In this document: positions 2 to 18,405 of the stretch, in pieces
How the letters are laid out: every line of letters begins with the position of its first letter
How positions within the stretch are numbered: position 1 is the first letter of the stretch
DNA from: Candidatus Saccharimonadota bacterium
GTDB taxonomy: Bacteria; Patescibacteriota; Gracilibacteria; BD1-5; UBA2023
Direction of reading: 5' to 3'
Assembly (NCBI GenBank): GCA_042852035.1
Contig: BAAFHK010000002.1
Location: 150,001-182,000 of the forward strand
DNA: 32,000 bases
Made by a program: the position numbers and the translations under genes
Notes under the pieces: model-generated
The model's input: the letters and a program-made list of their open reading frames with translations, nothing else
Told to the model about the DNA's origin: nothing
Databases searched by the model: none

Positions 2-1108
2 CTATCATTTTCAATGAAAGGTATAGCTGTTATTAAAAAGTTTTTTTTCTTACTCCCAAAGAAGAGGGAGGATGCGGTAATGCTTTTTACATCATGAAGC
101 GAATCTCTTCCTAAGGCAATTCTTCTTACTCATAAGAACATTCTTTGTGATATTGAGTGAGCTCTTGCTCTTGTTCCTTTTAAGAAAAATGAGACAATTA
201 TTTGATTCCTCCCACCATTTCATAGTTTTGGTTTTACAATAAATACGATTTTTCCATTCGTAGCACCAGTGCAAGCTGCCTATACACCAGACCCTGGTGA
301 TGCTCGAACTATAGGAAAGATTCTTTTACACACTCAAGCGAGTATTGTATCAGCAACTCCAACATTTCTTCGTATGATTCTTTCTGGAAATGAGGCTCAC
401 TCACTCACTTCACTCAAATTTGCTTTTGTGTGAGCAGAGAAATGTAACGATGAAGTATTTTCTCTTTTTCGAAAGAAGTGCCCTGAAGCTATTATTCTTG
501 AATGATATGGTATTACTGAGTGTAGTCCTATAGTGACGGTGAATCCTCTTTCAAAACAACTGAAATGATCAGCAGGAAAATTTCTTCCTACAATAATACC
601 AATGATTCGATCACTTGATAATAAAGAGTCTCTCAAAGCATGAGAACAATGAATGATTTACATTACGGGCCCAAGTATATTCTGATGATATATTGACCCA
701 AATTTGGAAAGTCCTTTTGATGAATTTGATTGAAAAAAATGGTATAAAACTTGAGATCTTGGTTATATAGATGAAGAATGATTTCTCTTTATTACTGGCA
801 GACTCAAGCGGTTTGTGAAAATTGCCTGAGAAATGATATCACTTCCTTTTATCGAGGGTATTCTTCTTGAAAAATATGGAAATCCTGAGGTTACAACTCT
901 TGCAATTGAGGCAAAAGAAGAAAATGGGAATGTCACAATTGTTGCATTCACAAATTTTGAAGAAAGTGTTGATGTAATCAATGATTACATACATACCCAT
1001 GGTGCATCAAATCTTGTAAAAATTGCAAGAGTAGAGAAGCTAAATGCTATTCCTATTCTTTGAACGGGAAAGACCGATTATAAGCAGTTAAAATCACTGA
1101 TTCAGTAG
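2..1108 (+). CDS. AMP-dependent synthetase/ligase (acyl-CoA/acyl-ACP synthetase-like), 5' end outside window
   Basis: Frame open from the window edge to TAG 1106-1108 with TGA=Gly. Adenylation motifs MLFTSGSESLPKAILLTH (Gly from TGA 95-97), [54 protein letters not shown]. Confidence 0.85.
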
Positions 1109-1110
1109 GC

Positions 1111-1137
1111 TTGTAATTCTCCACGATTACCTATAAT
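1111..1137 (+). promoter_or_regulatory. Candidate sigma70-like promoter (TTGTAA, 15 nt spacer, TATAAT) upstream of the diiron oxygenase gene
   Basis: TTGTAA 1111-1116 and TATAAT 1132-1137 lie in the 78-nt gap between stop 1108 and ATG 1187. The spacer is slightly short. Confidence 0.35.
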
Positions 1138-1140
1138 TGA

Positions 1141-1167
1141 GGGCAATACGTAATTTACGTATTGCCC
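1141..1167. repeat. Perfect inverted repeat GGGCAATACGTAA-T-TTACGTATTGCCC (terminator hairpin or operator)
   Basis: 13-nt arms at 1141-1153 and 1155-1167 are exact reverse complements, followed by TTT. It lies 33 nt after the upstream stop and 3 nt after the TATAAT box. Confidence 0.7.
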
Positions 1168-1186
1168 TTTAGAATTTCATTTTTTG

Positions 1187-2107
1187 ATGCAAAACAAACC
1201 TCATAATCCTATAATCAGGAATCTTACACGTATCTCACGAGAATCATCAAAAAGTTTCGAAGATTTTTTTGATTGGAATCAGTATAAGAAAGATGATGGA
1301 CAATACTACATGCCCCCAGAATTACTCTCGATATATGGATCAGAGTTATATGAAAAACTTACTGAGAAACAACTCCGAGAGCTCACCCGAATCGAAGCCA
1401 TACAAACACTTTATCTCTATGCCTATGCAGAAAGTGTGATGTGTTACTATATGGCACGCCATCTGGTAAAATCAGACTTTTGAAGTGAAGAACATGCTTT
1501 TATCCTCAGGGAACAAATCGAAGAGTATCGGCATCAGGATATGTTTCTCCGTGCATTAGAAATCCTTGGGAAAGATTATAAACCAATGTCAAAATTCACG
1601 AAATGGTGGACAGGATTTGAGGCAATAGTACTTCCGCCAAAGATTTTCTTTCTGCTTCAAATTGCAATTGAACTTGTAACACGTGAGATTTGAAGACTTA
1701 CATTTCCAGATGAGAGAATCCACCCGCTTGTCCGAGATCTCTGTATGATTCATGAAAGGGAAGAGGCTCGACACGTTACCTTTTCTAATGCATATATAGA
1801 AAATGCCTATAAAAGAGATGGATTTTTTATGAGAACAATTGCTGGTATATGCATAGCTCTCGATATAGCGTTTCTCCACCATTTCTACGTTTACCCCTGA
1901 ATGTATAAAAAGGCCTGAATCTCCGAAGATCTCAAATATTACAAAACAGCGAAGAAATTCATTTTAAGAAGTGAAGTGAAAAATATGATGACAGGAAGTG
2001 CTCGAGAATTTCTCTCCAAGCATTGATGGATAACATGGGCAAATGAATGGTTATTTCGTCTTCTTACAGGTATAACAAAAAATAAAATATATGGACCGAA
2101 TTCGTAA
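1187..2107 (+). CDS. Ferritin-like diiron oxygenase (AurF / acyl-ACP-desaturase-like)
   Basis: 306 aa. Two E...ExxH half-sites: YAESV...EEYRHQD and IELVT...EREEARH. Ends TAA 2105-2107, with 4 in-frame TGA codons. Confidence 0.7.
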
Positions 2108-3128
2108 AATCCTCCAACCAAAAATAGCAATCTACTCAATGGGGACGTATACACCAAGCCAAAAGATAACGAGTAGCGAAGTAGAAGAAAGAATCAGGAA
2201 AGAAAGTTCGTATACTGGTTTTCGAGAGAATTCCGTTTTTGAGATCTCTGGGACGTACACTCGATATTTTTCTGATAGCACAGAGGAGGCATCTACTCTA
2301 GCTTCTGAAGCTGCAAAAAAAGCACTCTCTTCTGCTTCTATGAAGATTGATGAAATAGATGCAATTATTTTTGCGAGCGCATCCCAAGATGTAATAGAAC
2401 CAGCTACTTGAAATAGGGTACAAACCCTTCTTTCAAGCAAAGCACCAGTGTTTGATATAAAAAACGCATGTAATAGTTTTCTTAATGGGCTCCAGGTAGC
2501 AAAAAGTCTCATATCCTCATGACAGTATTCATGTATTCTTGTATGTTCATGAGAGACTCCATCGAGAGCTATCCGTTGGGAAACCAAATCAGCAGCCGAC
2601 TTTAAGGATGCATTTGCTTGATACAATCTTTCAGATGCTGGTGTTGCTATGATCCTCTGAAAGCAGAAAGCAAAACTCCCAGAAATTGTTTTTACAGAAT
2701 TTCTTTCCAAGGGTGAGTATTTTGATGCAAGCATGATTCCTTGATGATGATCGTGTTTTCCTAGGGATACAGAGAAGCTTTTTTTTCGTTCTGATTCTCG
2801 TCGTCTTTCTGAGGCTTTCAATGTTGGAATATTGGATTTTACACAAAATACTCTAAAGAAACATCGATGGAAACTTTCAAAAGTGAATTATTTTCTTCCA
2901 CATATTGTTTCTCGATATTCAAAAGAAGTATTTTCCAATACATTTTCCCTCCCGCATCATAGAATTCTCAATTATAATTCTACTCACGGAAACATGGCCT
3001 CTTGTTCGGTCCCATTTGCATTTATTACTGAATATGAGAAGAAAAGATTTATTTCTCATGAACGAATTCTTATGGTATGACTTTGAGCCGGTGCATCATA
3101 TGCGCTTGTGTGAATAGAATTTCCTTAA
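2091..3128 (+). CDS. 3-oxoacyl-ACP synthase III-like thiolase (FabH/OleA family)
   Basis: 345 aa. Cys-His-Asn triad context: FDIKNACNSF (Cys codon 2469-2471), FLPHIVS, STHGNMASCSVPF. C-terminal MVGLGAGASYALV. ATG 2091 overlaps the upstream gene by 17 nt. Confidence 0.85.
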
Positions 3129-3164
3129 CTCTTGCAACTCATAGCATTATGGATACTATATTTT

Positions 3165-3170
3165 TATAAT
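3165..3170 (+). promoter_or_regulatory. TATAAT box 8 nt upstream of ATG 3179 (leaderless-type spacing)
   Basis: Exact TATAAT at 3165-3170. No purine-rich RBS lies between it and the ATG. Confidence 0.4.
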
Positions 3171-3178
3171 TGCTTTCT

Positions 3179-4216
3179 ATGAATACTCTGTATTTTTCTC
3201 CATATCTCACGCAATTGAGCGTATATTTTTTGATTATAACCTCTATAATCTTTTTATTTGTGGTATCCTACTGATTGAAGTATTATCGATATTTTTTCTG
3301 GAGATTTTCAGCTCTCCTCATATGAGTTCTTTTTTTTGAGTTTCTCACGAGTTCTTTGTGGGTAACGGCTCACCTTGGGACATATGGGTATCTCAATGGT
3401 GATGTGAGTCTTGTTCTTTCGTTTTTTTGGGCTTCTCTTATTTTCTCTTCTCGTATACTTTTTGATAAGATTTTTTTGAAGAAGACTCTTCTTTTGGAAC
3501 TAGGCTTTGTTTTGTGAATAACAACAATTTTCTGACTCCTGACTATTACTCTACTCAAAGAGATTGAAGTTTTTTCATACTCAAAAGAAATGCAGGAGAT
3601 TGTTCAGAGTGGTATAACTTTATTTGGTAGACCTCTTGAGGCATTGATCTATTTTCCTACATTTGTGTTTGTAACATATAGTTTTTATAAATATTGGGAA
3701 TTAGCGATGTACAATAAGCTCTATTTTCTTAATTATTCTATTCGCCCCACAAGAGATATATTTATAGTCCTTGGATCAGTTATAGCAATTTGATACCTTA
3801 TGCACCCGCTTCTTGTTTCGAATAATTTTTATACGTATCCTTTACTTTGTTTTTGAGCATTGATATTCCTCATTATCGTAAATTTCACAATTGCCTCTGC
3901 GACACATTTTTCTCTTTTTATTCGATATGTGTTTGGCACACTTTTGTTTTCAGTTTTCTTTGGTTCATTGTTGAGCTATCTTCTTTGAAAAGGTTGGATA
4001 CAAATTTCAGAGAGCCTTAAAATTAATTATACAGAAGCAACATTTTTTATTCCGGGATTTCACTTTACAGATTCTGAGGCAGTAGGAATTATGTTCTTTT
4101 CCTATTTGCTTATTGCCATAGTAAAATACTATAAGGTTGTTTTTTCTCATAAATCTATTTCAATCGATGACTCAAAAATGACATTTCGATGATGGAAGAG
4201 CCTCTTTAGTAGATAA
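3179..4216 (+). CDS. Polytopic integral membrane protein, unknown function
   Basis: 345 aa, continuous with TGA=Gly. Many hydrophobic segments rich in F/L/I/Y. An in-frame TAA at 3167 limits the start. Ends TAA 4214-4216. Confidence 0.75.
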
Positions 4217-4250
4217 TCGTATATAATATTTATTTTTTAACTTAAGCTCT

Positions 4251-4916
4251 ATGGGACTATCAGTAATAGTAAGTATTTTCTTTATTGTTGGCATTGTCTT
4301 TTCTGGAAAATATCCAATTCTATGAGCTATAGTGTGGTTCCTTATTATGAGTCTATGAGTTGCTTGAGGTACAGGAATTTTTGCTCTTATATTCGTTGAT
4401 TCTCAGCCTCAGATAGCAAATATGATTTGCATCGGGGGATTCATTGTTTGGCTGATTCTTACAGTTGGTATTATTCGAGCGTATCTTGCATTGCGAAAGC
4501 CACAGAATGTGAATATATGAACGAATGCCTCTTCCCAATCAAATACTACTCAAGGTACTTCTTTACCTCAGTCTCCAAAGATTTCTGATACTCCAAAAGA
4601 TTTAATCCAACAAAAGAAGTTAAGTCTCCGAGAGAAAATTGACGCTCTAGATATTGGCACAAAAGATACCGTCATCTTTTTTTATAAAGATGGTTCTGGT
4701 ATGAGGCTTCAGCTTAAAAATCTCGCGAAAATTGTTCAAGAAATAATCAATGAATTTCATAGAAGTGAATTTGCACCTTGAGAGCTTGAAAATCATTTCC
4801 ACTACATTAAAGAGAATTATGCAACAAGCCTTAATTCATCTGATTACTCTATTGTCTTGAAAGTCGTAGAAAGATTTGTAAAAGAATGAGGCAGGCTTGA
4901 TGTAACAACTTCATAG
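4251..4916 (+). CDS. Membrane protein (about 3 N-terminal TM helices plus soluble C-terminal domain), unknown function
   Basis: 221 aa, MGLSVIVSIFFIVGIVFSG..., then an S/T/Q-rich linker and a charged helical C-terminus. TATAAT at 4222-4227 upstream. Ends TAG 4914-4916. Confidence 0.7.
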
Positions 4917-4917
4917 C

Positions 4918-6387
4918 ATGATCTATCAATCATCATTACTTGATGAGATCGCAATACAGCTAGAAAAAAGCGATCCATTTATTATTCGATCTAACGGAGT
5001 AAGTATATCTAGAAATCAGTACAAACGAGAACTTGATTTTTTTACATATCAAATATCTTCATTTCTTTCTTGCGGTGATGTTTTTAGTGTTTGGATAGAT
5101 AATGAAATCCTTTTTTCTCAAATTATTCTTGCAGGTCTTCGATCTTGATCGGTTGCATGTTTAATTGATCCGGAATGATGAAATGCAATAGTTAAAAATC
5201 AAATCCTTGAGGCAAAAGTACAATATATATTTATAGAATGAAAAATATTTGATATATTTTTTCTAACGAGAAATCCACTTCTCCAACTACCAGTGCAATA
5301 TGTCATCGTATGATTTAGTGTCTTTGGTTTTCGGAGAAAGAAAATTCTTTGTGGGATCAGTGAAGTTCACCTCCCAGAAACAAAAAAACTTAATGAAAAC
5401 GAGCCTTCAATTATTGTTTTTACATGATGAACAACAGATGTTCCAAAATGAGTGGTACATACGCATAAATCACTTGTGGCTACCGCACAGAATTTACTGC
5501 CACTCTTCTCTCTCGTGAAACGTATGTATGTGGATATGCCACACTTTCTTCTCTTTGGATTACTTTTGGGTATTCCTATGGTAACAGGAAAGAATAGATT
5601 TTCGTCAAGAAAGGTATTTTCAATTATAAAAAAATATAATGTTGATGGATATTTCTCGCCACCGTATAGATATAATTTCCTTATTAAAAAAGGATATGTC
5701 CCAGCATCATTGAAGCATATATATATTTGATCGGCACCAGTCTATTATGGATTTCTCACAAGATTAATCTCTATTCTAAAATGAGATCAAAATATACATT
5801 GTATTTATTGAATGACGGAAATTCTCCCTATTGCAATGATTGATTGACGTGAAAAATTAGATTTCTGAAATGTTGCATGAGATATACTCTGAAGAGTATA
5901 TGGTAATATTGAAGTTAAATGCAGAAATCAAGAATTTCTTGTAAAATGACCACATGTGTCAGCATGATATTTATGAGATACAAAAAAAGAGTATATATCA
6001 ACGGGTGATTGTTGATATATTTCCGATGGTCTTCTCGTTCTGACTTGAAGAAAGAAAGATATGATAATTCGAAAGGATTTTAATATCTATCCTGCTCTTT
6101 ATGAGTCAATTATATCAAAGATTCCCTGAGTTATTGAGGTTGCCCTAGTTGGTGTATATGAGAGTAAAAATGCTGATGAGAAGATATTTCTCTTCTTGGA
6201 AGTATCATGAATAGTTTATAAAAAAGAAACAATTTTATCACTGCTTAAAAAATGAAAGTATTCCATTGATGAATTTGCTCTTCCTGATGAAATACTCTTT
6301 ATGAATCTTCCAAGGAAGTGAAGGCAGAAAAAAATTGATAAAGAAACACTTCGCCAATTTGCTAAAAAAAATTATTTATGAGGATAG
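4918..6387 (+). CDS. AMP-dependent synthetase/ligase (fatty-acyl-AMP/CoA ligase or OleC-like beta-lactone synthetase candidate)
   Basis: 489 aa. IIVFTGGTTDVPKGVVHTH (three motif Gly encoded by TGA at 5425-5430 and 5449-5451), IYGMTE, STGDCGYISDGLLVLTGRKKDMII, LPRKGRQKKIDK. Starts 1 nt after the upstream stop. Confidence 0.85.
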
Positions 6388-7262
6388 CTATACTGGGTGC
6401 TCTATGATTTGTTGGTCGAAATATAGTTCGATATTTCAAAAATAATAATGAAATATTCGCGTTTGTTCGTAGAATTGGGGATCATGAAGAATGAGTAGAA
6501 TATATTTTTTGGGATAATTCATATGAGCCCAATTTTTATGAAAAAATTGATGTTTGTATTGATTGTGTTTCTGATGTTGATTTTACGAAAAATGATACTT
6601 ATCTGATGGGAAATAATGTCTGAATATTGAAACAGACAAAGAAATTTCTTGAAGATACAAGCTGTGAGCATTATATTTATATATCAAGTTCTTCAGTATA
6701 TATGGGGAAAGATGGCATTCTCCATGAAGCTGATTGAATCGATATCAATAACTTGAGAAATTCCTATGCAAGATCAAAATATTTTGCTGAAGAGTATATT
6801 CGGAATAATTTTAAAAAATGAAAAATCACTATTCTTCGTCCTAGAGCTATATATGGAGATGATGATACGACGCTCCTTCCAAAGTTACTTTCATTACATT
6901 TTTTTTCCTATCTCATTTTTCCTTGAAATCAGAATATTTTTACTTCCGTTACACATATAGAAAACCTTCTTCATGCTCTTGATACGGTTATAAATAAGCA
7001 AACTGATTTGTATGGACACTATAATGTCTCAGATGAGAAGCAAGTTTTATATAAAGATTTGTATACAAAATTGGTTTTAAAATATGGATTTTCTAGAACT
7101 ATATCCCTTCCAGGTTTTATCATTTTTGTATTAAAGTATATATTACCCAATAAATGGGGATATATAGAAGATACATTCTCTAGAAATAAGCAGCTTGATA
7201 TTTCAAAAATTAAAACATTATGATACAATCCAAAGAAGGATTTAGACTCATTCCTTTCTTAA
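6378..7262 (+). CDS. NAD(P)-dependent epimerase/dehydratase-family SDR (OleD-like candidate)
   Basis: 294 aa. Rossmann motif MRIAILGALGFVGRNIV, catalytic YARSK, ILRPRAIYGDDD. Overlaps the upstream ligase by 10 nt. Confidence 0.8.
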
Positions 7263-7278
7263 AATTGATTCATTTTCT

Positions 7279-9501
7279 ATGTCACACAAAAAGGAAATAG
7301 TAGACGAAGTTACAGGACTTTTTCCTGTGAGTGTTAAAAAAATATTTACTCCTGAATCTATTGAGGATATACAGAAGATTCTTAAGGAGGAACCCTGAAA
7401 GATCTCAATTGGTTGAGGTCGATATAGCATGTGAGGACAAACAGCAGTATTGTGAGGTATTCAGATTGATATGAGAAAGATGAAAAAAATTCTTCATTTT
7501 GATGAAAAAAAGAAGTGTATTACCGTGGAAACGGGGATTACATGGAGAGATATACAAGATTATATTGACCCATACAACCTTTCGGTCATGACGATGCAGA
7601 CCTATTCGAACTTTACGGTGTGAGGTTCTCTTTCTGTAAACGTTCATGGGAGATATATCTGATATGGTCCACTTATTCTTTCTGTAGAAAGTATTAAAAT
7701 TATTCTTGCTGACGGTACAATAAAACTCGCGTCAAAGGTAGAGAATAGTGATATATTTTTTGCAGCAATCGGAGGGTATTGAGGTATATGAATTATTATT
7801 GAGGCAACTCTTCATCTCAAGGAGAATAGTATGCTCGAAAGAAAATATGAAGATATGGATTTACATCTCTATGGCGCCTGGTTTAGGGATAATGTGAGGA
7901 ATAATCGAGATGTTATTTTTCATAATGCTGATATATATCCGCCTCATTATAAAAAAGTTCGCGCCACAAGCTGGGAAAAGACAAAAAATCTTGCAACCAC
8001 TAAAGACGCCCTCATTTCAAGGAATTGATCGTATCCTATTCATCGGATAGCATACTTTCTTATGACCTATTTTAGATTTTGAAGACTTGATTTTGGAAAA
8101 TGGATTCGAGAATCTATTATAGATCCTCTTGTTTATGCTCATAAGGAAGTTCATTCTCGTAATTATGAGGCAAGTTATGATGTTGCAGAGCTCGAACCAA
8201 AAAGTCGAGAAAAAACCACATACGTTCTCGAGGAGTATTTTTGCCCTGTTGATAAAATAAATATTTTTGTTCCTAAAATGGCAGAAATATTTCAAAGACA
8301 TAATGCTAATATTGTAAATATTTCGATACGTCATGCCCTTCCTGACAATGGATCGATTCTAGCATGGGCAAAAGAAGAAGTTTTTGCTTTCGTGGTATAT
8401 TATAACCAAGAAACTACCTTACCTCGAAAGAGAGAGGTTGCAGTATGGACCCGGGAACTTATAGATGTCGTGTTATGAGTCGGTTGAAGATATTATCTTC
8501 CGTATCAACTTCATGGAAGTCTCTCGCAAATAAAGAAGGCTTACCCAAGGTTTCAAGAATATTGCGACATAAAGCAAAAGTATGATCCATCGTGAAAGTT
8601 CAGTAACTCTTTGCTTGAGAAGTATTACTTTGAGACTACAAAGAATAATAAAATACTTTCCTCTCGATTTCACACTATATATCATAATGAAGAGTGGAGA
8701 GATAAATTCTTTATTTTTCTTCAAAATATTTTTCATGTAGCACCTACGCATCTCTTCCATAGTCATATCTGGGATTTGATAGAAAAGCATAAAACAGATA
8801 AAGAAATCTATCTTGCTATACAGTCAACAATTTCTCAGATTAAGCCATTACTGGCAGATATTCGTTTTGGGATACCATCGCTCTATAAACAGAAGAATGA
8901 AATAGTTCAAGAGGTAAGTGAGCTTATTCCGAAAAAATGAAAATTTAATGGCTATCTTGAGGTGGGTTGAGCGGGAAGATATATACATCCAATGAAAAAG
9001 ACATACAGGATACATGGTCCAGTATACCTTGTTTCAGATGAGCCAATTGATTACTCTCCAGTTCGAGTTCTCGAAAGATGAAAAATTTCGAAATACAATA
9101 CAAAAAGGCTCACTTATTCTTCCGAAGACCTGGAGCATATACCTACAAATTCTCTTGATTTAGTGAGTATATTTATCGGACTTCATCATGCTCCAGTATG
9201 ACTTTTGGATAGTTTTGTATCTGCACTTTCATCGAAACTTCGTAAATGAGGAATTCTTATTTTAAGAGATCATAATGTTCATGATCCATTTATTTCCCAT
9301 TTTGTTTCGATAGCTCATGATATATATAACGCTTGAACGGGTATTTCATGGGATCAAAATGAAAGTGAACAAAGAAACTTTCGAAGTACCCAAGAATGGA
9401 AAGATTTACTCTGAAATCATGCTTTGAGATTCTGCGAGAAAGAAGTCCTACAACAACATGATCCAACACTCAATACGCTCATGTGTTTTATAAAAGAATA
9501 A
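7279..9501 (+). CDS. Fusion protein: N-terminal FAD-binding (PCMH-type) oxidase domain plus C-terminal class I SAM-methyltransferase-like domain
   Basis: 740 aa in a single frame. FAD domain ISIGGGRYSMGGQ, VGGSLSVNVHG, AAIGGYGGIGIIIEATL, GGRYYLPYQLH. MTase motifs YLEVGGAGRY (I), VYLVSDEP, LDLVSIFIGLHH (II), LRKGGILILRD (III). Confidence 0.8.
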
Positions 9502-9512
9502 AAAAATTTCTT

Positions 9513-10574
9513 ATGGGAAAAATTTTCAAAGTTATACTTCATCTTGTTTTATTCATCATTATTGTTGTTATAATTGTACTTTCATTTTCTTGGTATAATT
9601 ATAATCGAGGAGTTAAAAGTGTAGATATTGGTCTTCAGGAACGTATTTTTTCTTGAGTCTCAATAGATAATATCTTTTCGACCGATACCTGATCTATACG
9701 CAGAACATGAAATACATTTATGAGCATACCGGAATGGTATATAGTAACTCTCTCGGCAGATTATACTAAATGGCTTGAAGAAGGGAAAAATCCGAGTGAC
9801 TTTCCATACTTTCATTATCTGAGTGATATGTGGTATATGTATGGGAGAATTACCGCTATAATGGATGGGAAAATACCGAGAGATTATGAATACCATACCA
9901 TGGTGCAGGTTATATGACTTAGTACCACTTTAGAGTTTTGATCTAAAGCGATTTATGAATTAACCCTCTGAAGAATAACATCATTTTTTTGATATAACAC
10001 ACAAGAGGATCGTTATTATCGGGATTTTTCTCGGAAATATGTGAATTTTATACTTCTTCGTCCATGGTATGAATTTCCATTTCGTGAGCTTAGAGAAGGC
10101 TTCCGGTTGAGAGAGTATAGTATAAGAGGTATAGAGCGATTTGCTATAATCTCTATTGAGTTATATTTAAAAGAGAAATATGCAAAACTCATTGAAGATG
10201 CGGCCCATTCGAATTTTGCCACTCCTGATATATGGACTAGCCTGGAGTGAAATTTTTCAAAAAAAACTATAAGTACATTAGGTCTGAAAGCAGAGGAGAT
10301 GACTTGAGGGATAAGAATCCCTCGTTATTATCCATTCACTGAAATTTTTCCTGATATTATTGAGAATAGAGAAAATCGAGTATATTCTATAGCATGAAAT
10401 AAATATATCGTGAGTGAGTTTTTATGAGCTGAACAAGACACGAATGCATTTCTTTCATTTCCCCTCCCTACAGAGCCGAAAATCTTTCGATCCTATTATT
10501 TTACAAGTATTGATTGATTAAAAACAAACCTCTCTAATCCAAAAAGTACCCTTATACATATTTATGATTTTTAA
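9513..10574 (+). CDS. N-terminally membrane-anchored hypothetical protein
   Basis: 353 aa. N-terminal TM KVILHLVLFIIIVVIIVLSF. W/Y/F-rich soluble part. I recognise no family. Confidence 0.7.
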
Positions 10575-10576
10575 TT

Positions 10577-11875
10577 ATGAAAAACTATTCTCTGATTCTA
10601 AAAAATATCGATAGAACTTTTGAAAAGGCTTTGAATTCTCTGAAGAAAGATCCTATTTTTTCATCGAATCAAACTCTCTATACGGATGATGATAAAAATC
10701 GTATAGCGTTATATTGGAAAGATATTTTAAAGCCATTTTGAGAACTTCAAAGAATTATACGTTCACTCATGTGGCGGTCATTTTTTACTTTCGGAAGTAA
10801 AAATATATTTGTCGTCAAATATTCGGCAATAATCACCTATTACAATATGGTCTATGAACTTCAGCAGAGCTTTGGTCCTCATGAGGAATTTCTCAGGCAA
10901 TATCTTGATGATACATTTTCAGAGAATTATTCCACCCTTGCTCGATTTATGTACCACATAAGATTTTACAGTATTCTTTCATACCCAAGAGAGTATTTTC
11001 TCTCCCTCAGGGATGAGGTAATTCCTTCGCTTGCGCCACTTTTTGATAGACCAGAAAAGCATGCTTGAGATGTTGAGAAACGATGGAAACATGACCTCAT
11101 AAACATATGGTACTATGTAAGATATAAAATGAGCTTAGTTCTTACTTGGATATCGAAGCATGGAGGGAGACTTATGATGCACATTCATCTGAGAAAGCGA
11201 GAACATTGACTTATATCCCTTGAAAATCTCAAATCAGTAGAGAAGCTTCTTAGTCCAGGTGATATACTTCTTACTCGTGGAAATTGGGCGGCTACAAACC
11301 TCAATATTCCATGATTTTGGAAGCATATGGCAATGTATATAGGAACAGGGAAGTACTTAAAGGATTCTTATACTTATGAAAAGCTCTCACTTCTTGATGA
11401 CTCAACTCATTATATTATAGAGGCAATAGGAGTATGAGTACAGATTATCCCCCTTGAGTCTCTTTGCGGGCATAATGATTATCTCTGAGTATTACGACCG
11501 AAATTCAAAAATGAGAAAGTATCACGAGCCATAGAAAAAACCCTTAAACTTGAAGGGAAGTCCTACGATTACTCATTTAACTATTATAGTGATGTCAATT
11601 ATGTTTGTTCTACTCTTGTAACGAAGGCCTATCTTCCAGAATCATATACTGATGAAGGGATACATATATCACTTACTCGAATAGGAACAGGAATCACTTA
11701 TCCTCCGAATGATATCGTAAAAAAATATAGTGTTGAGTATATGACGAAGAAAGAGGAGCTCACATTTGTTGCATTTATTGATTGTATTGATAAGACGGGT
11801 CAAAGTTTTCTTGCTACCGAAGAGGCTTTCCGAAGTTCGGGCTTTAGACCAAAACTTTCTTTTTTTCTTCCCTAA
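10577..11875 (+). CDS. YiiX/YaeF-like permuted papain-fold (NlpC/P60 superfamily) protein with about 200-aa N-terminal extension
   Basis: 432 aa. SPGDILLTRG...FWKHMAMYIG, IIEAIGVGV, KSYDYSFNYYSDVNYVCSTLVTKAY match the family motif order. Confidence 0.7.
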
Positions 11876-12445
11876 ATGCATTTTGAGTATCATAAAAAAT
11901 CATGAGAAAAAATTGATGAAGCAAAAAAAAGTGGTTTTTTCTCTCTGGGTGATCTTTCTGATGAGAGTGTTCTTGCAAGATACTATATTTCGAGATATTT
12001 TCATGATACATATTCTTTCATTCCATTCCTAGATAAAGATAGAAATGGTTTTCCACTGCCGATAATCTCCTGAAGCCTCGGAACATTTTATTGGTCAATT
12101 TCTCACTCAGATGAATATGTTGCATGGATGATAGATAAAAATCCTTGCGGTATTGATATTGCTCAATATTTTATTCGAGATGAATCACTTCTTTCCAAAC
12201 ATGATGAAGAAGAATATGAAATACTCTGAGAAAAATCATGGAAAAATTTTTATAGACTTTGGACTTCAAAAGAGGCACTTATAAAGAAACTTTCTCTCAC
12301 TCTTGATGACATGGAGAAAATTAAGCTTTTTTCTTCAGATAAAGAACAACTCGTATTTGTATTTTTCTCCGAATCCCATACAATTACCACAATTCAAGAG
12401 GATAAAATTTTTATTTCCTTTACTCCATCATATGAATCGATTTAA
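11876..12445 (+). CDS. 4'-phosphopantetheinyl transferase (Sfp/EntD type)
   Basis: 189 aa. SISHSDEYVAWMI, PCGIDIA, FYRLWTSKEALIKK. ATG abuts the upstream stop (11873-11875). Confidence 0.8.
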
Positions 12446-13637
12446 GACATTTTCCTTATTTCTTATTCTGGTGGCGGTATGGGCACTTTTCTTTGCTACG
12501 GTGAAGTTTTTTCTTTGGGGTGATCTTTCTGAAGAATTCCAGCCTGATCTTCAGCAAATTGCTTGATATCTTTCGCTTTGATGAGCAATCGCGTTTCTTA
12601 TAGGCTGAGCCTTTGCTCAAACTTTCCTAAAAAAGTATTATCTTTTTATCATTGCTCTTCTTTCCTCAGTTTTTATTCTTTATGCTTATCTTGTAGGATT
12701 TTCGAGAGAGATACTTTTTGCTGCAACAGTTACAATTCTCTGATTTCTCTACGGATTATGGAATGTAATGAAAAGCGTTATTATCTCGATAGAGATTAAA
12801 AAGACAAACCTTCCTGAAACTGCTGTAACTGCAATTGTTGGGATGATGTTTGTGATTTGTATTATATTTTGATCTCTTCTTGGGACTATTGCTTATGAGA
12901 AAATAGGTCATCATGGATATCTTTTATTGCTAGGATATCTTCTTCTCGCAGGAATTACTTCATTCTTTCTCGACTATGACGGAGTATCTTTCAGATCCCT
13001 TCTTACAAAGTGATGGAAAAATTATCTTATGGGTCGCAAGCAAAGCCTTGCAGTATCGATGAAGGCATATATTCCAGATCTTATTTATATCACAAAACAC
13101 TATCTTCCAATTATCGTAACTTCATCACTTTTCTGGTCTATTTCAACTATTATTTCCCAGGCTTCAGTAGAATATAGTAGCGCAACTTTTGGTATAAAAA
13201 GCTCACAAGCGACGATGATTCTTCTCTATTCAGCCGTGGGAGCTATAATAGGAAGTTTTCTCTCTATAAAAATGTGAAATAATCGATGGATGTATTTTAT
13301 GATTTTTAGTATCCTTTTTTCTCTCTCTACAGCTATGATTCCTGTATTTGGTTCTTCATTTGGGAATCTTTCAATCATTGCAACAGTGCTTGGAATGTGT
13401 TTCTGAACGGCTGTAAACCTTTCAGATTCCTTTCTTTTAAAATCGTTTGGTGATGAAAATAAAAAGGAGTATGGCGCATCCACAATGGGGCTTATATTTT
13501 CTATTATACTTTTTCTATCAATGTTCTTATCAAGTATGTTACTTCAGAGGCTCTGATATCATACGGTTATGTATATTTTCTCTGGAATAATTCTTACTAT
13601 TTGAGTTTCACTTGGTATTTATAAATTAAAAAAATAA
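12432..13637 (+). CDS. Multi-pass membrane transporter (MFS-like)
   Basis: 401 aa, about 11-12 hydrophobic helices in two halves separated by a basic loop (LLTKGWKNYLMGRKQS). Overlaps the PPTase gene by 14 nt. The MFS assignment is by topology only. Confidence 0.6.
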
Positions 13638-13661: not shown

Positions 13662-16600
13662 ATGAAACATTCTTCTTTACTGGTGGTTTTGGTAGCGAGT
13701 TTTCTCACTCTTTTTGCAGGTATTTCATTGGTATCTGCCATTTCTGTACGTACAGTTGAAGCAGTGAAGGAAGAAGCTTTTACAGGAATTGAATATCCAG
13801 AAGGTGAGAGCTTTGTGAGATTGAAGCAATTGATTGATGAGACTTTTACCGTTCAAAAAACGAAATCCCGTTACTCATATTGATTTTATGGTACTTATCC
13901 TTCATGTATCTCAGATAGATGGCTTTGTACGAATTATAAGTATACAAGCCTTACCGAAAAATCAATAAAGTATATTATACTTGAAACTTATGTATGAAAT
14001 GAAAATTTTTATAGAAATCTTTTTCGATTTTCATCTTCTTACTCAAGTTATGGTGATGATACCTATGGTGGCACTTCTTCATGAAACTCGAAATCTCAAG
14101 TGGCAGAAATTCTAAAACTTGTTCCAGTAGGTAAAAGTGTACTTGCACCAGTATCAAATATTTTTTCTCAAAAATCAACATATTCCTACTACAATCCTTC
14201 AAGCAATATCTGAGCGAATCTTCTTTCCTCAAGCTTCTGAGTCGATTTTACCGAGAATAGCAGTCAAAATACTATGCTCTGAGCGATCGAACAAAAGATA
14301 AAAGATATGAAGCGATCGAAGTGTCAGAAAGAAATCCAATCACAAAATTACAATGCCATCAATTCTAAATGCCCATGGACTGGTGAAATTTCAAATCGAT
14401 ACCTTCCAACCCTTGAAGAGCTTCTTTGAGAAAATATCTATTATAATGGAAGGTCAGTAAGTATAAAGAACATAAAGGATCAATTCGAATATAGTATATC
14501 ATGATCCATCTCGGTAATCGATAGGGAAGTCACTCAGTATGACTACAATAAAAATATAATGCCCTTCTATGATAATCTTCCTTGAGAATGAGAAGTATTT
14601 TCGGGAGGTTCTGGTGAGGCGCCTTGAGTAAAAAGAGTTGCCTCTAATATGTCTTTTCTTGAAAGTAAGTGAATATCCTTAGTGGCCTCACCTTCGATTG
14701 CAAAATCAAATGAGCTCCTTGATCTTGTAAATCAAGAATTAATGTATTCACATGATGAGTCAACCAAGGCTTATCTCAATGCCCTTAAAGAGATGGGTAC
14801 GTATTATATTAATGAATTTCAAAAAGATACCCTCCTCGAACCGACCTATACTCTTCGTCTTTTGAAGAATTCGTATACTCTTGAAGAGGCAAAAGCAGAA
14901 CTAGAGAAAAAACAATCAGAAACTGACACTATTTTTCGAGGTTCGAGCTGAATTCTTTGACAACTTCCGTGTATACTCGAAGGAAGTTATATCGTTCGTT
15001 CACAGTGTGCTGCCGCAAGGGCAAATATGAATACTGTTATGACGGCACTAGGGGCTTATTATTCAGATAGAGAAACATACCCAGATACTCTAGAGGCGCT
15101 CAATACGAATTATCTTCCAAAACAACAAGTTCTAGAGGACTTCAAGAAGAATTTTTCTTATAGATCAATATCAGGAACAACAAGTTCAAGTAATGACTAT
15201 GAAATAGTCTATATAGGAAAGATTTGAGAAGGGTCTCTCTCAACTTCAGATAAGCCTGATTATAATCTCCTTCTCTCATGAGCTCAAGTTCCCGAAATTC
15301 CAGCAATTTTTTCTCGTGCCCCTTCTGATAGTGTCGTGCTTTATGTAAAAAATCCCCAGAATCTTTTTGCCCTCCTTGAGACAAAATCCAATACCTCCAC
15401 AAGACTCTCATGAATGGATGTATCTCAATCTGTAAAACAAACCATTCAAGATTTTTTTGAGTTAAAGGACTTTTCAACACTTGAAGAAAATCTCGAGCAT
15501 GAAGCACTTTTGGTGATTGAGAACCTAGATTTTAGCGCTCCAGATGTAACCCTTATACTCTCTGAAGAAGATCGTGCTGCTCTTTCTCCATCAGCAAAAG
15601 CACGAGTAGTTGGTTCAAAAGATGGATTTATCTATGTCTCAAGCTCCAAATCAACAATCGATAGATTTATGGATCTTCCTGAAGGAAAAAGTCTTTCGGA
15701 ATCTCCTGATTTTCGATATGTTTGGACAAAAAAATCAGGCCTAATAAAAGATGCTTACATGTTTGTCGGAGATGCATTTTTTGAGAGAATGCTCACGCTA
15801 GAAACATATATTACTCATTATCGAAAATTACGTGATGTTGAGCGGCTTTCAAAACTTCAAGAGCTGGTTTGGTCCTATCAGGATGCCTATGGGAAATTGC
15901 CTAAAAATCTTGATGAGTTAATTTCTCAATTTGATGCCGAAGGCAAATTAAAGCCATTTATCAGTGATTTCTCAATAACGGAAGATGGTAGGGTAGTACA
16001 TAAGAATATTGGTGCGATTGGAAGTATAAAAACTATTCCAGAAATTAATTATGATATCTCAACAATATCTCAATCGGAACTCGATGACTACAAAACAAAT
16101 GTTCTTAAGTATAGAGATACCTGGAGAGCTTCTCTTGATCCGATGGGTATTGTCATGAATCGATATGGAGATGGTATTGAAGTTGATTTCTTTATGACGC
16201 CAATTCCGAAACTTGATTGAGACTTTAAAGATATTCAAGATATTTTTGAATGAGCTACGAAAGAGTCATTCGATTATTTAAATAATCAAAAATTACGTCT
16301 TTGAATTCTTACTCTTGTTGCTGGCTTTGATCCAAAAAAGCTTCAAAATAAAGCTGCGGAAATTAAAGATTTCTGACAAGGCCTAGAACAAACCAATGCT
16401 GAACTCCTTGATGGAAAGAATATCTTTGATTACATAGGCGGAGAGTGAGCTTTTACTCTCTGAAATATTCCATCAGATATTCTCGATGGATGGAATGTGG
16501 AAAAGATTGATGCTCACTTTGCAATAGAATTTGTCTCAAAGGAGAAAGGAAAAGAGTTTATAGATATCGTAAGAAAAAAATTCCTTTCTCGTTATGAGAG

Positions 16601-17792
16601 TGCATCAGACGGATATTTCGATATGAAAAGCTTCTTTGCAAAGCCACTCATTGAGGACTATCAATGAGAACAGATATATTATATTGAGGCAATTCCTGTT
16701 CCTTTCGTTGGGAAAATTGGCTTTGCCTATACCTTTATAGATAACTTCTTTTTTATCGGACTGAATCGAACCAGTATGCGACATGTTATCGATGTTGCTA
16801 ATTCGGGTGATGATGCTCGAAAGACCTTACTTGATTGAAGTACAGTTCTAGAAAACTCGTTTTTTGTCGGACTTCTCGATGGAATTACCGCATCGAGCGA
16901 TCTCAAATGACTCTATGAAAAAAACCGTACTTCCATACCTCGCTACGCATCACTTCTTGATAAAAATGATTCTTGACTACAAGGACTCAATCAGATACTT
17001 TCCTCATATCATGTGTCTTACACAAGATCAAAGAGACTTGGTATTGATTCAAAGCCATTTGATTTCACACTTTGAGGACTTAGTATCAAAGAAATTGATG
17101 GAGATTTATGGGTTCGTATCGATGAATCGCTCCAAAATGATCTTTCAGGGACTACCCTTCAGCTTTGGGAAAATATATCATCTGATGAACGTTTTCCGAG
17201 AGCATTAGTCGGAGATATGGGTATTAAAATCCAAGAATTTCTTATGAATCCTATGAAATCTGAAATTCTAGCCTTTGAACTTATCGTAAAGCTTGATCAT
17301 GCTTTTGAATGAAATGAATCACTTCTTCGAAACTCAACCTTCTCATTGTCAGTAAATGAGAATGAGATTTGATTCCTTTCTCGAGTCTTTCGAGAAAGAG
17401 ACACTCATGGAAATACTTGAGAGACTAAAGGTATCTTTTCATGAATAAATTCTGCATATATTATTTGATGATGAGTTTTCATAGTACTTGTAATAATCCT
17501 TTGAGGAGGATTCCTGTTGTATAGCAGAAAGAAAAATATTGGACTAAACAAGAATAATCCGTCTAACTCTCAAGCTTCTCCAGGTTCATCCTTAGCAAAC
17601 TATAGCCTTCCTCCTGGGATTATCATTGGCGATGAACAATCAGTGCTTATTAAGCCAACTGCAACCCCAACTATATCCGAAATAGTGCAGTCAGTAGATC
17701 AGGCATCTTCATCATGAGAAATTGCAATAAACACATCTCAGTCACCAACAACAGGTGAATCATGAAATAATAGTCTCCCTTCCCAAAGTTAG
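13662..17792 (+). CDS. Giant secreted protein, 1376 aa, signal peptide plus C-terminal TM anchor and S/P/T-rich tail
   Basis: One uninterrupted frame with TGA=Gly, checked codon by codon. N-terminus MKHSSLLVVLVASFLTLFAGISLVSA. TM IIGGGVFIVLVIILGGGFLLY (17460-17522) followed by SRKKN and a low-complexity tail. Ends TAG 17790-17792. Confidence 0.8.
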
Positions 17793-17793: not shown

Positions 17794-18405
17794 ATGGCAC
17801 ATATAATTGCCAAAGATATCTCATTTATTCGCTCAGGGAAAGCAATTTTTTCTCACAGAGACTTTTCGATTTATCCTGGAGAGATAGTTCTTATTAAGGG
17901 GCCATCAGGTTCTTGAAAAACCACTCTTTTAAGGGTTCTGTGATGACTTATAAAAGAAAATAGTGGAAGTATCGAACGATCTTTTTCTCAAAGAGATCGA
18001 CTACGACTGTGTGGTTTTCATTTTGTTGATGGTCCTTTCCTTGAATATCTTACAGTAATGGAGAATTTGCTTATATTAGAGCTTTTCTCGGGGATTCTTC
18101 TTTCTCGAGAATATCTTCATGAATTAGCGGAAGTTTTTGAAATTTCCCACTTACTTTCAAGAAAAATATCTTCTCTTTCATCATGACAAAGAGAAAGAGT
18201 GAGTATTATTCGTTCATTTTTACATAATCCAGAGATTGTTTTTTTAGATGAGCCTGGATCGAACCTTGATCAAGTTATGGAAGAAAAAGTAAAGCTATTC
18301 CTTCTTGAGCAAATAAAAAAAGGGAAGTCTTTAGTTTTTTCTACCCACTCTGGAACGTGGGACGTATATGCAAAATCAATTATTGAACTCCCTTTGTATG
18401 AATAA
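17794..18405 (+). CDS. ABC transporter ATP-binding protein (MacB/LolD/FtsE-like)
   Basis: 203 aa. Walker A GPSGSGKTTLL (Gly from TGA 17914-17916), signature LSSGQRERV, Walker B IVFLDEP. Confidence 0.9.

What the first reader, a model, noticed from the sequence alone, without database searches (positions are those of the whole stretch)
2091..7262. OleA/OleC/OleD-like logic without OleB: possible beta-lactone (not olefin) chemistry
A FabH-like thiolase (2091-3128) is followed by an AMP-ligase (4918-6387) that overlaps an NAD(P)-dependent SDR (6378-7262) by 10 nt. Thiolase, SDR reductase and AMP-dependent beta-lactone synthetase make up the established OleA/OleD/OleC enzyme set, and oleC-oleD adjacency is typical. 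No alpha/beta-hydrolase (OleB decarboxylase) lies in the cluster. The only such fold in the window is the unrelated esterase at 24224-24850. This pattern is seen in beta-lactone natural-product clusters. The assignment rests on family membership only. I cannot distinguish OleA from KAS III or OleC from FadD by eye.
Basis: inference. Interest (0 to 1): 0.65.

Follow-up and report, generated by a model that had tools for sequence, protein, structure and literature searches.

The report
OleA/OleC/OleD-like lipid genes in Gracilibacteria
A tiny, host-dependent bacterium that reads the stop codon TGA as glycine carries a gene set resembling the one other bacteria use to join two fatty acids head to head, but it lacks the final decarboxylase, so it probably makes a branched hydroxy-acid or beta-lactone lipid rather than a hydrocarbon.

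Summary
The three genes exist at the stated coordinates, but only if TGA is read as glycine (code 25, Gracilibacteria-like).

- **Thiolase:** it is OleA-like rather than a true FabH. Its best solved-structure matches are all X. campestris OleA. It keeps the Cys-His-Asn triad and the OleA-specific Glu117 (I-E-P), where E. coli FabH has Phe87.
- **Reductase (SDR):** its orthologues in relatives match NCBI's OleD model best.
- **Ligase:** it belongs to one family with ligases that sit beside OleA/OleD homologues in about 70 actinomycete species. That family groups with genuine OleC in 91-98% of neighbour-joining bootstraps, but profile scores are equivocal.
- **OleB:** no homologue is present in the window.

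All three proteins fall far below NCBI's curated Ole cut-offs, and no product is known even for the closest actinomycete clusters. The "oleACD without oleB" reading is therefore supported as logic, but beta-lactone formation is unproven.

The operon also holds an AurF-like diiron oxygenase, an orphan membrane protein, an Aas-like acyltransferase/carrier/ligase, a phosphopantetheinyl transferase and an MFS transporter. This suggests remodelling of scavenged fatty acids. I rate it a new variant of a known kind.

The parts
14..1108 (+). C-terminal AMP-binding half of an Aas-like protein (acyltransferase, carrier domain, acyl-carrier ligase); the N-terminus is cut by the window start
   Evidence: Pfam AMP-binding at 6.5e-38. 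Best NCBIfam match is acyl-[ACP]--phospholipid O-acyltransferase at 302 bits, below its cut-off. It is 32% identical to E. coli Aas over 354 aa. The 86%-identical orthologue in L007 is 874 aa with a PlsC acyltransferase domain, a CDSLD carrier motif and an AMP-binding domain.
1187..2107 (+). AurF-family (PF11583) ferritin-like diiron oxygenase; overlaps the thiolase start by 17 nt
   Evidence: Pfam AurF at 127.5 bits, cut-off 29.6. Two ExxH motifs (EEYRH, EEARH) are visible in the translation. It is conserved next to the thiolase in L003/L009, L007, L008 and Parcubacteria L006. It has no close solved structure.
2091..3128 (+). OleA-like thiolase (KAS III fold)
   Evidence: The top 12 PDB sequence hits are X. 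campestris/X. oryzae OleA entries at 98.8 bits; the best FabH scores 89. Cys127, His271, Asn301 and Glu103 (= OleA C143, H285, N315, E117) are invariant in 13- and 40-sequence alignments. E. coli FabH has Phe at the Glu position. The top NCBIfam model is PRK09258 at 150.7 bits, the model that genuine OleA hits at 477 bits.
3179..4216 (+). Orphan polytopic membrane protein, conserved partner of the cluster in Gracilibacteria
   Evidence: Only 20 homologue clusters in 5.8 billion proteins and 81 representatives in 1.84 billion. No Pfam match. The AF2 model is confident (pLDDT 83.6, pTM 0.87) but has no PDB neighbour, best E 2.1. It is syntenic in L003/L009, L007 and L008. Three of 10 distant members show faint sub-threshold Lycopene_cyc hits.
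4251..4916 (+). Small membrane-anchored protein of unknown function; its stop lies 1 nt before the ligase start
   Evidence: ORF under code 25. No Pfam match. Conserved only in the closest relative L007 at 72%.
4918..6387 (+). Class I adenylate-forming enzyme in the OleC position; candidate beta-lactone synthetase or acyl-AMP/thioester ligase
   Evidence: Pfam AMP-binding. NCBIfam scores are PRK06187 124.6, PRK09274 122.4 and OleC-Xan 87.4 bits. It is 34% identical to the Actinomadura cluster ligase, E 1e-51. The clade OleC + actinomycete + window-type ligases has 91-98% NJ bootstrap support. A 'TE-x-LP-[IV]-A' stretch is shared with OleC. Profile scores are equivocal.
6378..7262 (+). OleD-like extended SDR (GALGFVG Rossmann motif, YARSK catalytic motif); overlaps the ligase by 10 nt
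   Evidence: Pfam Epimerase/3Beta_HSD/NAD_binding_4. It is 26% identical over its full length to the Actinomadura SDR, whose best NCBIfam hit is OleD at 123 bits. Orthologues in L003, L005 and L008 each match OleD best at 76 bits. The window protein itself scores only 30-32 bits on the OleD models, against 49 bits for a partial thioester-reductase match.
7279..9501 (+). FAD-linked (PCMH-type) oxidase of the DprE1/aldonolactone-oxidase kind, fused to a methyltransferase-like C-terminal region
   Evidence: Pfam FAD_binding_4 at 84 bits and ALO at 29 bits. The nearest PDB entries are L-galactonolactone dehydrogenase and DprE1. The C-terminal 284 aa give only sub-threshold hits to five methyltransferase families. 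It is 85% conserved in L007.
9513..10574 (+). Membrane-anchored protein of unknown function
   Evidence: ORF under code 25 with an N-terminal hydrophobic helix. No Pfam match.
10577..11875 (+). YiiX/YaeF-type permuted papain-like amidase (Peptidase_C92)
   Evidence: Pfam PF05708 at 64 bits.
11876..12445 (+). Sfp-type 4'-phosphopantetheinyl transferase
   Evidence: Pfam ACPS at 26.3 bits. NCBIfam AusB/AcpT-type PPTases. Conserved in L003/L009 directly after the SDR, and in L005.
12432..13637 (+). MFS transporter
   Evidence: Pfam MFS_1. Homologues lie in the same clusters in L005 and L008 at 35-39% identity. There is no BLAST similarity to E. coli LplT.

Best explanation
The window comes from a code-25 (Gracilibacteria-type) bacterium. 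Genes 2091-3128, 4918-6387 and 6378-7262 form a divergent OleA/OleC/OleD-type module with no OleB. The inferred steps are as follows. First, the OleA-like thiolase loads one long acyl chain on Cys127. Glu103, supplied by the partner subunit, deprotonates its alpha-carbon, and the enzyme condenses it without decarboxylation with a second acyl thioester to give a 2-alkyl-3-keto acid. Second, the OleD-like SDR reduces this to the 2-alkyl-3-hydroxy acid. Third, the adenylate-forming enzyme activates the carboxylate. It then either closes a beta-lactone ring, as OleC does, or hands the acyl group to a thiol or carrier. With no OleB decarboxylase, no olefin is expected. In Gracilibacteria the module is embedded in an operon with an O2-dependent diiron oxygenase (probably chain hydroxylation or desaturation, the role a P450 has in the actinomycete clusters). 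The operon also holds an orphan membrane protein, an Aas-like acyltransferase-carrier-ligase, a PPTase and an MFS transporter. The substrates are therefore most likely fatty acids scavenged from a host, and the product is a membrane-associated or secreted branched lipid. What is shown: gene structure, genetic code, family membership, conserved catalytic residues, synteny across lineages and absence of OleB in the window. What is inferred: all of the chemistry.
For: - **Code 25:**
- **Thiolase:** OleA entries are the best solved relatives. Glu117 and the C-H-N triad are invariant, while E. coli FabH has Phe there. PMC8180931 states that OleAs carry [LIVYF]-E-P at E117 and that E117A abolishes condensation. 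A 53%-identical homologue is labelled acyl-CoA:acyl-CoA alkyltransferase by JGI. A family profile scores Xc OleA at 187 bits against 152 for E. coli FabH.
- **Synteny:** thiolase, ligase and SDR co-occur in 5 Gracilibacteria loci and in about 70 actinomycete species, with ligase and SDR adjacent. This is the same architecture as the Actinoplanes oleA-GT-oleC-P450-oleD cluster of PMC7064751.
- **SDR:** OleD is the best NCBIfam model for the actinomycete orthologue and three Gracilibacteria orthologues.
- **Ligase:** it is sister to genuine OleC with 91-98% NJ bootstrap support across three column sets and two distance measures. The OleC profile's best non-OleC hits are window-type ligases.
- **OleB:** none found.
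Against: All three proteins are far below the curated NCBIfam cut-offs: OleA model 150.7 against 285; OleC 87 against 900; PRK09274 122 against 478; OleD 30-32 against 580. The window-type ligase profile scores FadD13 (102 bits) and FadD5 (96) above OleC (68-91), and Xc OleC hits the Aas-like domain as well as it hits the ligase. The NJ tree has only 10 outgroups and long branches. LstC and NltC could not be included. The window's own SDR scores higher on a thioester-reductase model (49 bits, partial) than on OleD. Foldseek ranks FabH structures practically level with OleA. Ligase homologues also occur alone in Bacteroidia. The Actinoplanes OleA of the nearest cluster type hydrolysed p-nitrophenyl hexanoate but gave no Claisen product in vitro. 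Only 32 kb of the genome was available, so an oleB elsewhere cannot be excluded.
Confidence: 0.55

Rival explanations
1. The condensation and reduction are the same (OleA-like and OleD-like), but the ligase is not a lactone synthetase. Instead it adenylates a fatty acid or the 2-alkyl-3-hydroxy acid and loads it on the phosphopantetheine arm of the Aas-like protein's carrier domain (or on CoA). The PlsC-type acyltransferase domain then installs the branched, mycolate-like acyl chain on a lysolipid. The logic resembles FadD32/Pks13/CmrA in corynomycolate synthesis (own knowledge).
For: A PPTase and a PlsC-carrier(-AMP) protein are conserved in the Gracilibacteria clusters. In Gracilibacteria LF-bin-37 (L009) the PlsC-carrier protein lacks its own AMP-binding domain, so the stand-alone ligase is the only adenylating enzyme in the cluster. 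Ligase profile scores are as high for the CoA ligases FadD13 and FadD5 as for OleC. The A10 lysine and A8 hinge motifs are intact.
Against: The same ligase family sits in about 70 actinomycete clusters that have no carrier protein, PPTase or acyltransferase. The NJ tree groups it with OleC rather than with Aas or FadD. The ligase-SDR translational coupling mirrors oleC-oleD.
Confidence: 0.22
2. The three genes are ordinary, functionally unlinked lipid enzymes. On this view they are a FabH-type KAS III, a fatty-acyl-CoA synthetase and a sugar-nucleotide epimerase/dehydratase-type SDR, which resemble Ole proteins only at superfamily level.
For: NCBIfam FabH-type models score almost as high as the OleA model (149.9 against 150.7 bits). 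Foldseek ranks FabH about level with OleA. The best Pfam hit of the SDR is Epimerase. Generic FACS models top the ligase list.
Against: The Glu in place of FabH's Phe87 is invariant in 40 family members. The protein is below the FabH cut-off (TIGR00747 139.5 against 292). There are no fabD/fabG/acpP/fabF genes in the window. The trio is syntenic in two very distant phyla. SDR orthologues match OleD best, not the epimerases.
Confidence: 0.12
3. The ligase, a carrier domain and the SDR act as a split carboxylic-acid-reductase-like system (A-T-R). Together they would reduce a fatty acid to an aldehyde or alcohol. The thiolase and oxygenase would serve another step.
For: The window SDR's best NCBIfam hit is the thioester-reductase domain (49 bits), with Pfam NAD_binding_4 at 42 bits. 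A PPTase and a carrier domain are in the operon.
Against: The thioester-reductase match covers only residues 55-165. Orthologues match OleD better (76 bits against 45-65). The actinomycete counterpart is clearly OleD-like (123 bits against 51) and has no carrier or PPTase nearby.
Confidence: 0.07

Closest known systems
Actinomycete 'oleA-glycosyltransferase-P450-oleC-oleD' clusters lacking oleB (Actinoplanes atraurantiacus type; Smith et al. 2020, mBio, PMC7064751)
   Same: These hold the closest named relatives of all three window proteins: thiolase 35-42% identical, ligase 27-37%, SDR 24-31%. The order is the same (thiolase ... ligase-SDR), there is no OleB, and one oxygenase is present in the cluster.
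   Different: The actinomycetes use a P450 and a GT2 glycosyltransferase. The window instead has an AurF-like diiron enzyme, an orphan membrane protein, an Aas-like acyltransferase/carrier, a PPTase and an MFS transporter. The host is a code-25 Candidate Phyla Radiation (CPR) bacterium. The product of the actinomycete clusters is itself unknown.
OleABCD long-chain olefin pathway (Xanthomonas campestris; genuine locus recovered here as L142)
   Same: The thiolase keeps C143, H285, N315 and E117. A ligase and an SDR are adjacent downstream. The chemical logic is the same up to the 2-alkyl-3-hydroxy acid.
   Different: Identity to Xc OleA, OleC and OleD is only about 25-27%. No OleB is present. 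The window ligase lacks two OleC insertions. All scores are below the equivalog cut-offs.
Lipstatin (LstA-D) and nocardiolactone (NltA-D) beta-lactone clusters (bioRxiv 10.1101/856955)
   Same: They have an oleACD-type gene set without oleB, and the end product is a di-alkyl beta-lactone.
   Different: Those clusters encode two OleA homologues (LstA/B, NltA/B), whereas the window has a single thiolase. I could not obtain their sequences, so similarity was not measured.
E. coli Aas/LplT lysophospholipid re-acylation system
   Same: The first gene of the operon is 32% identical to Aas, and an MFS gene lies in the same operon.
   Different: In relatives the Gracilibacteria protein carries its own carrier domain. 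The MFS protein shows no detectable similarity to LplT.

Membership tests
OleA (acyl-CoA:acyl-CoA alkyltransferase) | KAS III-type thiolase fold with a Cys-His-Asn catalytic triad (C143, H285, N315) | tested here: met
   Cys127, His271 and Asn301 align with the OleA residues and are invariant in 13 and 40 sequences. The AF2 model has pLDDT 91.6 and superposes on OleA at TMq 0.85-0.88.
OleA (acyl-CoA:acyl-CoA alkyltransferase) | Catalytic base Glu117 in a [LIVYF]-E-P motif, supplied by the partner subunit (PMC8180931) | tested here: met
   The window has I-E-P-A-T with Glu103 aligned to Glu117, and E-P-A-T is invariant in 40 relatives. E. coli FabH has A-F-P-S-A there. Whether the Glu reaches the partner's active site was not modelled.
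OleA (acyl-CoA:acyl-CoA alkyltransferase) | Score above the curated cut-off of the NCBIfam model that genuine OleA hits (PRK09258, cut-off 285) | tested here: not met
   150.7 bits against 477 bits for genuine Xc OleA. It is still the top model, but it is level with the FabH-type PRK09352 at 149.9 bits.
OleA (acyl-CoA:acyl-CoA alkyltransferase) | Non-decarboxylative Claisen condensation of two long-chain acyl-CoAs | not testable with these tools
   This needs an enzyme assay. The nearest tested relative type (Actinoplanes) was active on p-nitrophenyl hexanoate but not on the acyl-CoAs tried.
OleC (olefin beta-lactone synthetase) | ANL-superfamily enzyme with intact adenylation motifs | tested here: met
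   Pfam AMP-binding. TGGTTDVPKG, GRKKD and the C-terminal K-I-D lysine are visible in the alignment.
OleC (olefin beta-lactone synthetase) | Score above the NCBIfam OleC equivalog cut-offs (900/850) or PRK09274 (478) | tested here: not met
   87.4 bits on OlefBLtnSynXan and 122.4 bits on PRK09274. Genuine OleC scores 1048.7 and 760.5.
OleC (olefin beta-lactone synthetase) | Falls in the monophyletic beta-lactone synthetase clade (bioRxiv 10.1101/856955 reports a tight clade) | tested here: inconclusive
   It is sister to six genuine OleC sequences in 91-98% of NJ bootstraps against 10 other ANL enzymes. However, profile scores do not prefer OleC, and LstC, NltC and the FAALs were not sampled.
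OleC (olefin beta-lactone synthetase) | Gene adjacent to oleD | tested here: met
   There is a 10-nt overlap with the SDR gene. In the genuine locus L142, oleC and oleD are adjacent.
OleD (2-alkyl-3-oxoalkanoate reductase) | Extended SDR of the 3-beta-HSD type with GxxGxxG and YxxxK motifs | tested here: met
   GALGFVG and Y-A-R-S-K in the translation. Pfam 3Beta_HSD at 2e-10 and Epimerase at 2e-13.
OleD (2-alkyl-3-oxoalkanoate reductase) | Score above the NCBIfam OleD cut-off (580) | tested here: not met
   The window protein scores 29.6 and 32.2 bits. Orthologues score 76 bits with OleD as the top hit, the Actinomadura counterpart 123 bits and genuine OleD 625.6 bits.
OleABCD olefin pathway | OleB beta-lactone decarboxylase (haloalkane-dehalogenase-like alpha/beta-hydrolase) in the cluster | tested here: not met
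   tblastn of Xc OleB against the window under code 25 gives a best E of 0.72, and there is no hit in the code-25 relatives' loci. The hydrolase in L008 has a GHSIGS serine nucleophile motif. The rest of the genome was not available.
FabH (true KAS III of type II fatty acid synthesis) | Score above the TIGR00747 cut-off (292.1) and a fab-gene context | tested here: not met
   139.5 bits. No fabD, fabG, acpP or fabF is found in the 32-kb window.

The most novel reading that the evidence does not exclude
Gracilibacteria are epibiotic or predatory CPR bacteria believed unable to make fatty acids. On this reading they use an OleA-type head-to-head condensation on fatty acids scavenged from the host to build very long branched lipids. 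These would be mycolate-like 2-alkyl-3-hydroxy acyl chains or beta-lactones, tailored by an O2-dependent diiron enzyme. A lineage-specific membrane protein of unknown fold (3179-4216) would carry out the membrane step, either as a cofactor-free replacement for OleB or as a transfer or cyclisation catalyst. The product would be either an envelope lipid unique to this lineage or a serine-hydrolase-inhibiting weapon against the host.
Probability: 0.2. Interest if true: 0.8.

Novelty: new variant of a known kind. Interest (0 to 1): 0.58.

Why it matters
CPR bacteria such as Gracilibacteria are thought to depend on hosts for lipids, and almost nothing is known about how they modify what they take. 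This is a conserved operon that couples fatty-acid capture (Aas-like protein, PPTase, MFS transporter) to an OleA-type condensing enzyme, a reductase, an adenylating enzyme and oxygenases. It would be the first indication of head-to-head fatty-acid chemistry in this radiation. It also yields concrete candidates for expression assays. If the product is a beta-lactone, it is a potential lipase or protease inhibitor used in an epibiotic or predatory lifestyle. If it is a mycolate-like lipid, it changes the picture of CPR envelopes. In addition, the link to about 70 actinomycete clusters whose product is also unknown means one characterisation would annotate both groups.

Tried and rejected
1. The table-11 ORF list is useless here; all gene calls were redone with code 25.
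2. Looking up the window's own contig to see upstream DNA failed because no record was held. Upstream content was inferred from the relatives L007 and L008.
3. The MFS protein as an LplT orthologue was rejected: no BLAST similarity.
4. The alpha/beta-hydrolase between ligase and SDR in relative L008 as an OleB was rejected: it has a Ser nucleophile motif (GHSIGS) and no tblastn match to Xc OleB.
5. A fold search of the thiolase model to separate OleA from FabH was not discriminating.
6. A fold search of the orphan membrane protein found no neighbour. A profile search of 1.84 billion proteins found only 81 relatives, with at best faint Lycopene_cyc hits.
7. The AurF-like protein has no solved-structure relative by sequence. 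BioE (PMC12704756) is only a precedent for diiron enzymes acting on acyl thioesters, not a demonstrated relative.
8. A sterol-modification reading (Rieske, FA_hydroxylase, 3-beta-HSD and an FAD enzyme in relatives) was considered and dropped. It does not explain the thiolase Glu or the actinomycete synteny.
9. Literature searches for Ole or beta-lactone genes in Gracilibacteria/CPR found nothing relevant.
10. LstA-D and NltA-D sequences could not be fetched, so they are absent from the trees.
11. No tRNA genes are in the window, so no tRNA-Gly(UCA) check was possible.

Full report
**1. Observation**

Under the standard bacterial code the reported genes are broken: 2091..2411 is only 106 aa. 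Straight translation of the three intervals shows many in-frame TGA codons at positions where glycine is expected. Examples are GAL*FVG (the Rossmann motif) and FT**TTDVPK*V (the adenylation motif). With TGA as a sense codon the + strand is tiled by long ORFs.
- thiolase 2091-3128 (345 aa);
- ligase 4918-6387 (489 aa);
- SDR 6378-7262 (294 aa), overlapping the ligase by 10 nt.

The 43 TGA codons in these genes align with Gly in 265 of 444 homologue residues, with Ala in 75 and never with Trp. The code is therefore 25. The best species-level genome hit is a Candidatus Gracilibacteria MAG. Pfam confirms the three families. The finding did not mention the recoding, the two membrane-protein genes between thiolase and ligase, or the AurF-like gene that overlaps the thiolase start.

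**2. The thiolase is OleA-like**

- Sequence search of the PDB ranks every X. campestris/X. oryzae OleA entry first (98.8 bits). FabHs follow (89, 82 ... 59 bits for E. coli).
- The alignment to 3ROW puts identical residues at OleA's Cys143, His285 and Asn315, and at Glu117, the base supplied by the partner subunit.
- These four residues are invariant in a 13-sequence alignment that includes Xc OleA and in 40 family members. E. coli FabH has Phe at the Glu position.
- PMC8180931 states that demonstrated or predicted OleAs carry [LIVYF]-E-P here and that E117A abolishes condensation.
- NCBIfam's top model is PRK09258 (150.7 bits). I showed that genuine OleA hits this model at 477 bits. The score is below the cut-off of 285 and level with a FabH-type model (149.9 bits).
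- A family profile prefers Xc OleA (187 bits) over E. coli FabH (152 bits).
- A confident AF2 model (pLDDT 91.6) matches OleA first, but FabH structures are practically level, so the fold does not discriminate.

**3. Relatives and synteny**

The nearest named homologues (38-41% identity) are in Actinomadura, Spirillospora and other actinomycetes. Some are labelled acyl-CoA:acyl-CoA alkyltransferase by JGI. In 79 actinomycete species-representative loci the thiolase is followed by GT2, P450, an AMP-ligase and an SDR. The window's ligase and SDR hit exactly those partners, at 27-37% and 24-31% identity. This is the architecture that Smith et al. [quoted passage not shown] That enzyme was active in the p-nitrophenyl hexanoate screen but gave no Claisen product when purified.

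In code-25 relatives the trio recurs:
- L003/L009 have AurF-thiolase-ligase-SDR-PPTase as one contiguous block.
- L007 has the window's gene order.
- L005 and L008 carry extra oxygenases.
- A Parcubacteria contig has thiolase-ligase plus AurF.

**4. SDR and ligase**

I recovered a genuine X. campestris ole locus (L142; OleA 100% identical to the PDB sequence) and verified OleA, OleB, OleC and OleD with NCBIfam.

*SDR.* The Actinomadura SDR matches OleD best (123 bits; the next model scores 52). Three Gracilibacteria orthologues also match OleD best, at 76 bits each. The window's own copy is more diverged (30-32 bits) and scores 49 bits on a partial thioester-reductase match.

*Ligase.*
- NCBIfam gives PRK06187 at 124.6 bits, PRK09274 at 122.4 and OleC-Xan at 87.4. 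Genuine OleC hits PRK09274 at 760 bits.
- A 44-sequence neighbour-joining analysis included six OleC, ten actinomycete ligases, 18 window-type ligases and ten other ANL enzymes (FadD, FadD5, FadD13, two MenE, EntE, two Aas, 4CL, AAE3). It recovers (OleC + actinomycete + window-type) in 91-98% of bootstraps. This holds across two distance measures and three column sets.
- The three groups share a TE-x-LP-[IV]-A stretch.
- Profile scores are equivocal. The window-type profile scores FadD13 (102 bits) and FadD5 (96) above OleC (68-91). The OleC profile's best outside hits are window-type ligases (70-80 bits), just ahead of FadD5 (67).
- Some ligase homologues stand alone in Bacteroidia.

Affinity to beta-lactone synthetases is therefore real but moderate, and membership in the OleC family is not established.

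**5. OleB**

Xc OleB finds nothing in the window (best E 0.72) or in the relatives' loci. The esterase at 24224-24850 is an Abhydrolase_2 serine esterase. The hydrolase between ligase and SDR in L008 has a serine nucleophile motif.

**6. Wider context**

All genes from 14 to 13637 are on one strand with small gaps or overlaps:
- an Aas-like protein whose N-terminus is cut by the window. Its orthologue in L007 has a PlsC domain, a CDSLD carrier motif and an AMP-binding domain;
- an AurF-family diiron protein with two ExxH motifs;
- the thiolase;
- an orphan membrane protein;
- a small membrane protein;
- the ligase and the SDR;
- an FAD oxidase fused to a methyltransferase-like tail;
- an unknown membrane-anchored protein;
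- a YiiX-type amidase;
- an Sfp-type PPTase and an MFS transporter.

Aas-like, PPTase and MFS genes travel with the trio in divergent Gracilibacteria. In LF-bin-37 the PlsC-carrier protein lacks an AMP domain, which leaves the stand-alone ligase as the only adenylating enzyme in that cluster.

The orphan membrane protein has only 20 relatives in 5.8 billion proteins and 81 representatives in 1.84 billion. Its AF2 model is confident but has no PDB neighbour, and only faint Lycopene_cyc similarity appears in distant members.

**7. Interpretation**

The best-supported reading is an OleA/OleD-type head-to-head condensation and reduction, followed by carboxylate activation, with no decarboxylation. 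In actinomycetes this core is tailored by a P450 and a glycosyltransferase. In Gracilibacteria it is tailored by diiron oxygenases and coupled to capture of exogenous fatty acids.

Whether the ligase closes a beta-lactone or loads a carrier for acyl transfer (a mycolate-like lipid) remains open. I give 0.55 to the Ole-type module overall, and within that roughly two-thirds to a beta-lactone end product.

The rivals are carrier-loading (0.22), unrelated housekeeping enzymes (0.12) and a split CAR-like reductase (0.07).

**8. Novelty**

"oleACD without oleB" is a published category (PMC7064751; bioRxiv 10.1101/856955). What appears new is its occurrence in a code-25 CPR lineage and its fusion into an operon with Aas-like/PPTase/MFS, diiron and orphan-membrane components. 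Two literature searches found no report. I rate it a new variant of a known kind, of moderate to high interest. Everything beyond sequence, residues and synteny is inference.

Noticed in passing
window 1-32000 (all genes): The whole window uses TGA as a glycine codon (code 25). Gene callers using table 11 shatter every gene, and relatives in public databases are often translated with Trp at these sites (W where G is expected in P0002-P0009).
   Followed up: yes
window 3179-4216: An orphan 345-aa membrane protein that looks like a tandem duplication of a unit of about 170 aa (many profile hits match in two stretches, or are 170-190-aa proteins). It has PLE and DSE motifs in the two halves, a confident AF2 model and no structural neighbour. 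Three distant relatives give faint Lycopene_cyc (PF18916) hits.
   Followed up: partly
window 7279-9501: A 740-aa fusion of a DprE1/aldonolactone-oxidase-like FAD domain with a C-terminal region. That region matches class I methyltransferases only below threshold (YLEVGGAGRY motif). It is conserved at 85% in relative L007.
   Followed up: partly
window 10577-11875: A YiiX/YaeF permuted papain-like amidase (Peptidase_C92) with a roughly 220-aa N-terminal extension, inside the same operon. Its role is unknown.
   Followed up: no
window 13662-17792: A 1376-aa secreted protein with a signal peptide, a C-terminal transmembrane helix and a Ser/Pro/Gln-rich tail. ABC ATPase and FtsX-like permease genes follow at 17794-19606. 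It may be a surface or attachment protein.
   Followed up: no
L008 7166-12324 (code-25 relative): The equivalent cluster carries extra genes between thiolase and SDR: a Rieske oxygenase, a DUF3419 (BtaA-like) protein, an FA_hydroxylase-family membrane diiron enzyme and a serine alpha/beta-hydrolase. The Aas-like protein there has two carrier motifs.
   Followed up: partly
L034, L038, L041, L044, L050, L064, L082 (Nonomuraea): A reduced actinomycete variant has thiolase-P450-SDR only, without the GT2 and the ligase. The ligase is therefore dispensable in some lineages.
   Followed up: no
L074 about 8437 and L083 about 8420 (Streptosporangium), minus strand: A weak AurF-like homologue (24-25% identity to the window's) lies just upstream of the actinomycete thiolase cluster, on the opposite strand.
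   Followed up: no
window 21696-22379: A 227-aa protein matching only the N-terminal domain of asparaginase (PF00710). It sits next to a 426-aa Cys/His-rich protein (22390-23670) with no Pfam match.
   Followed up: no
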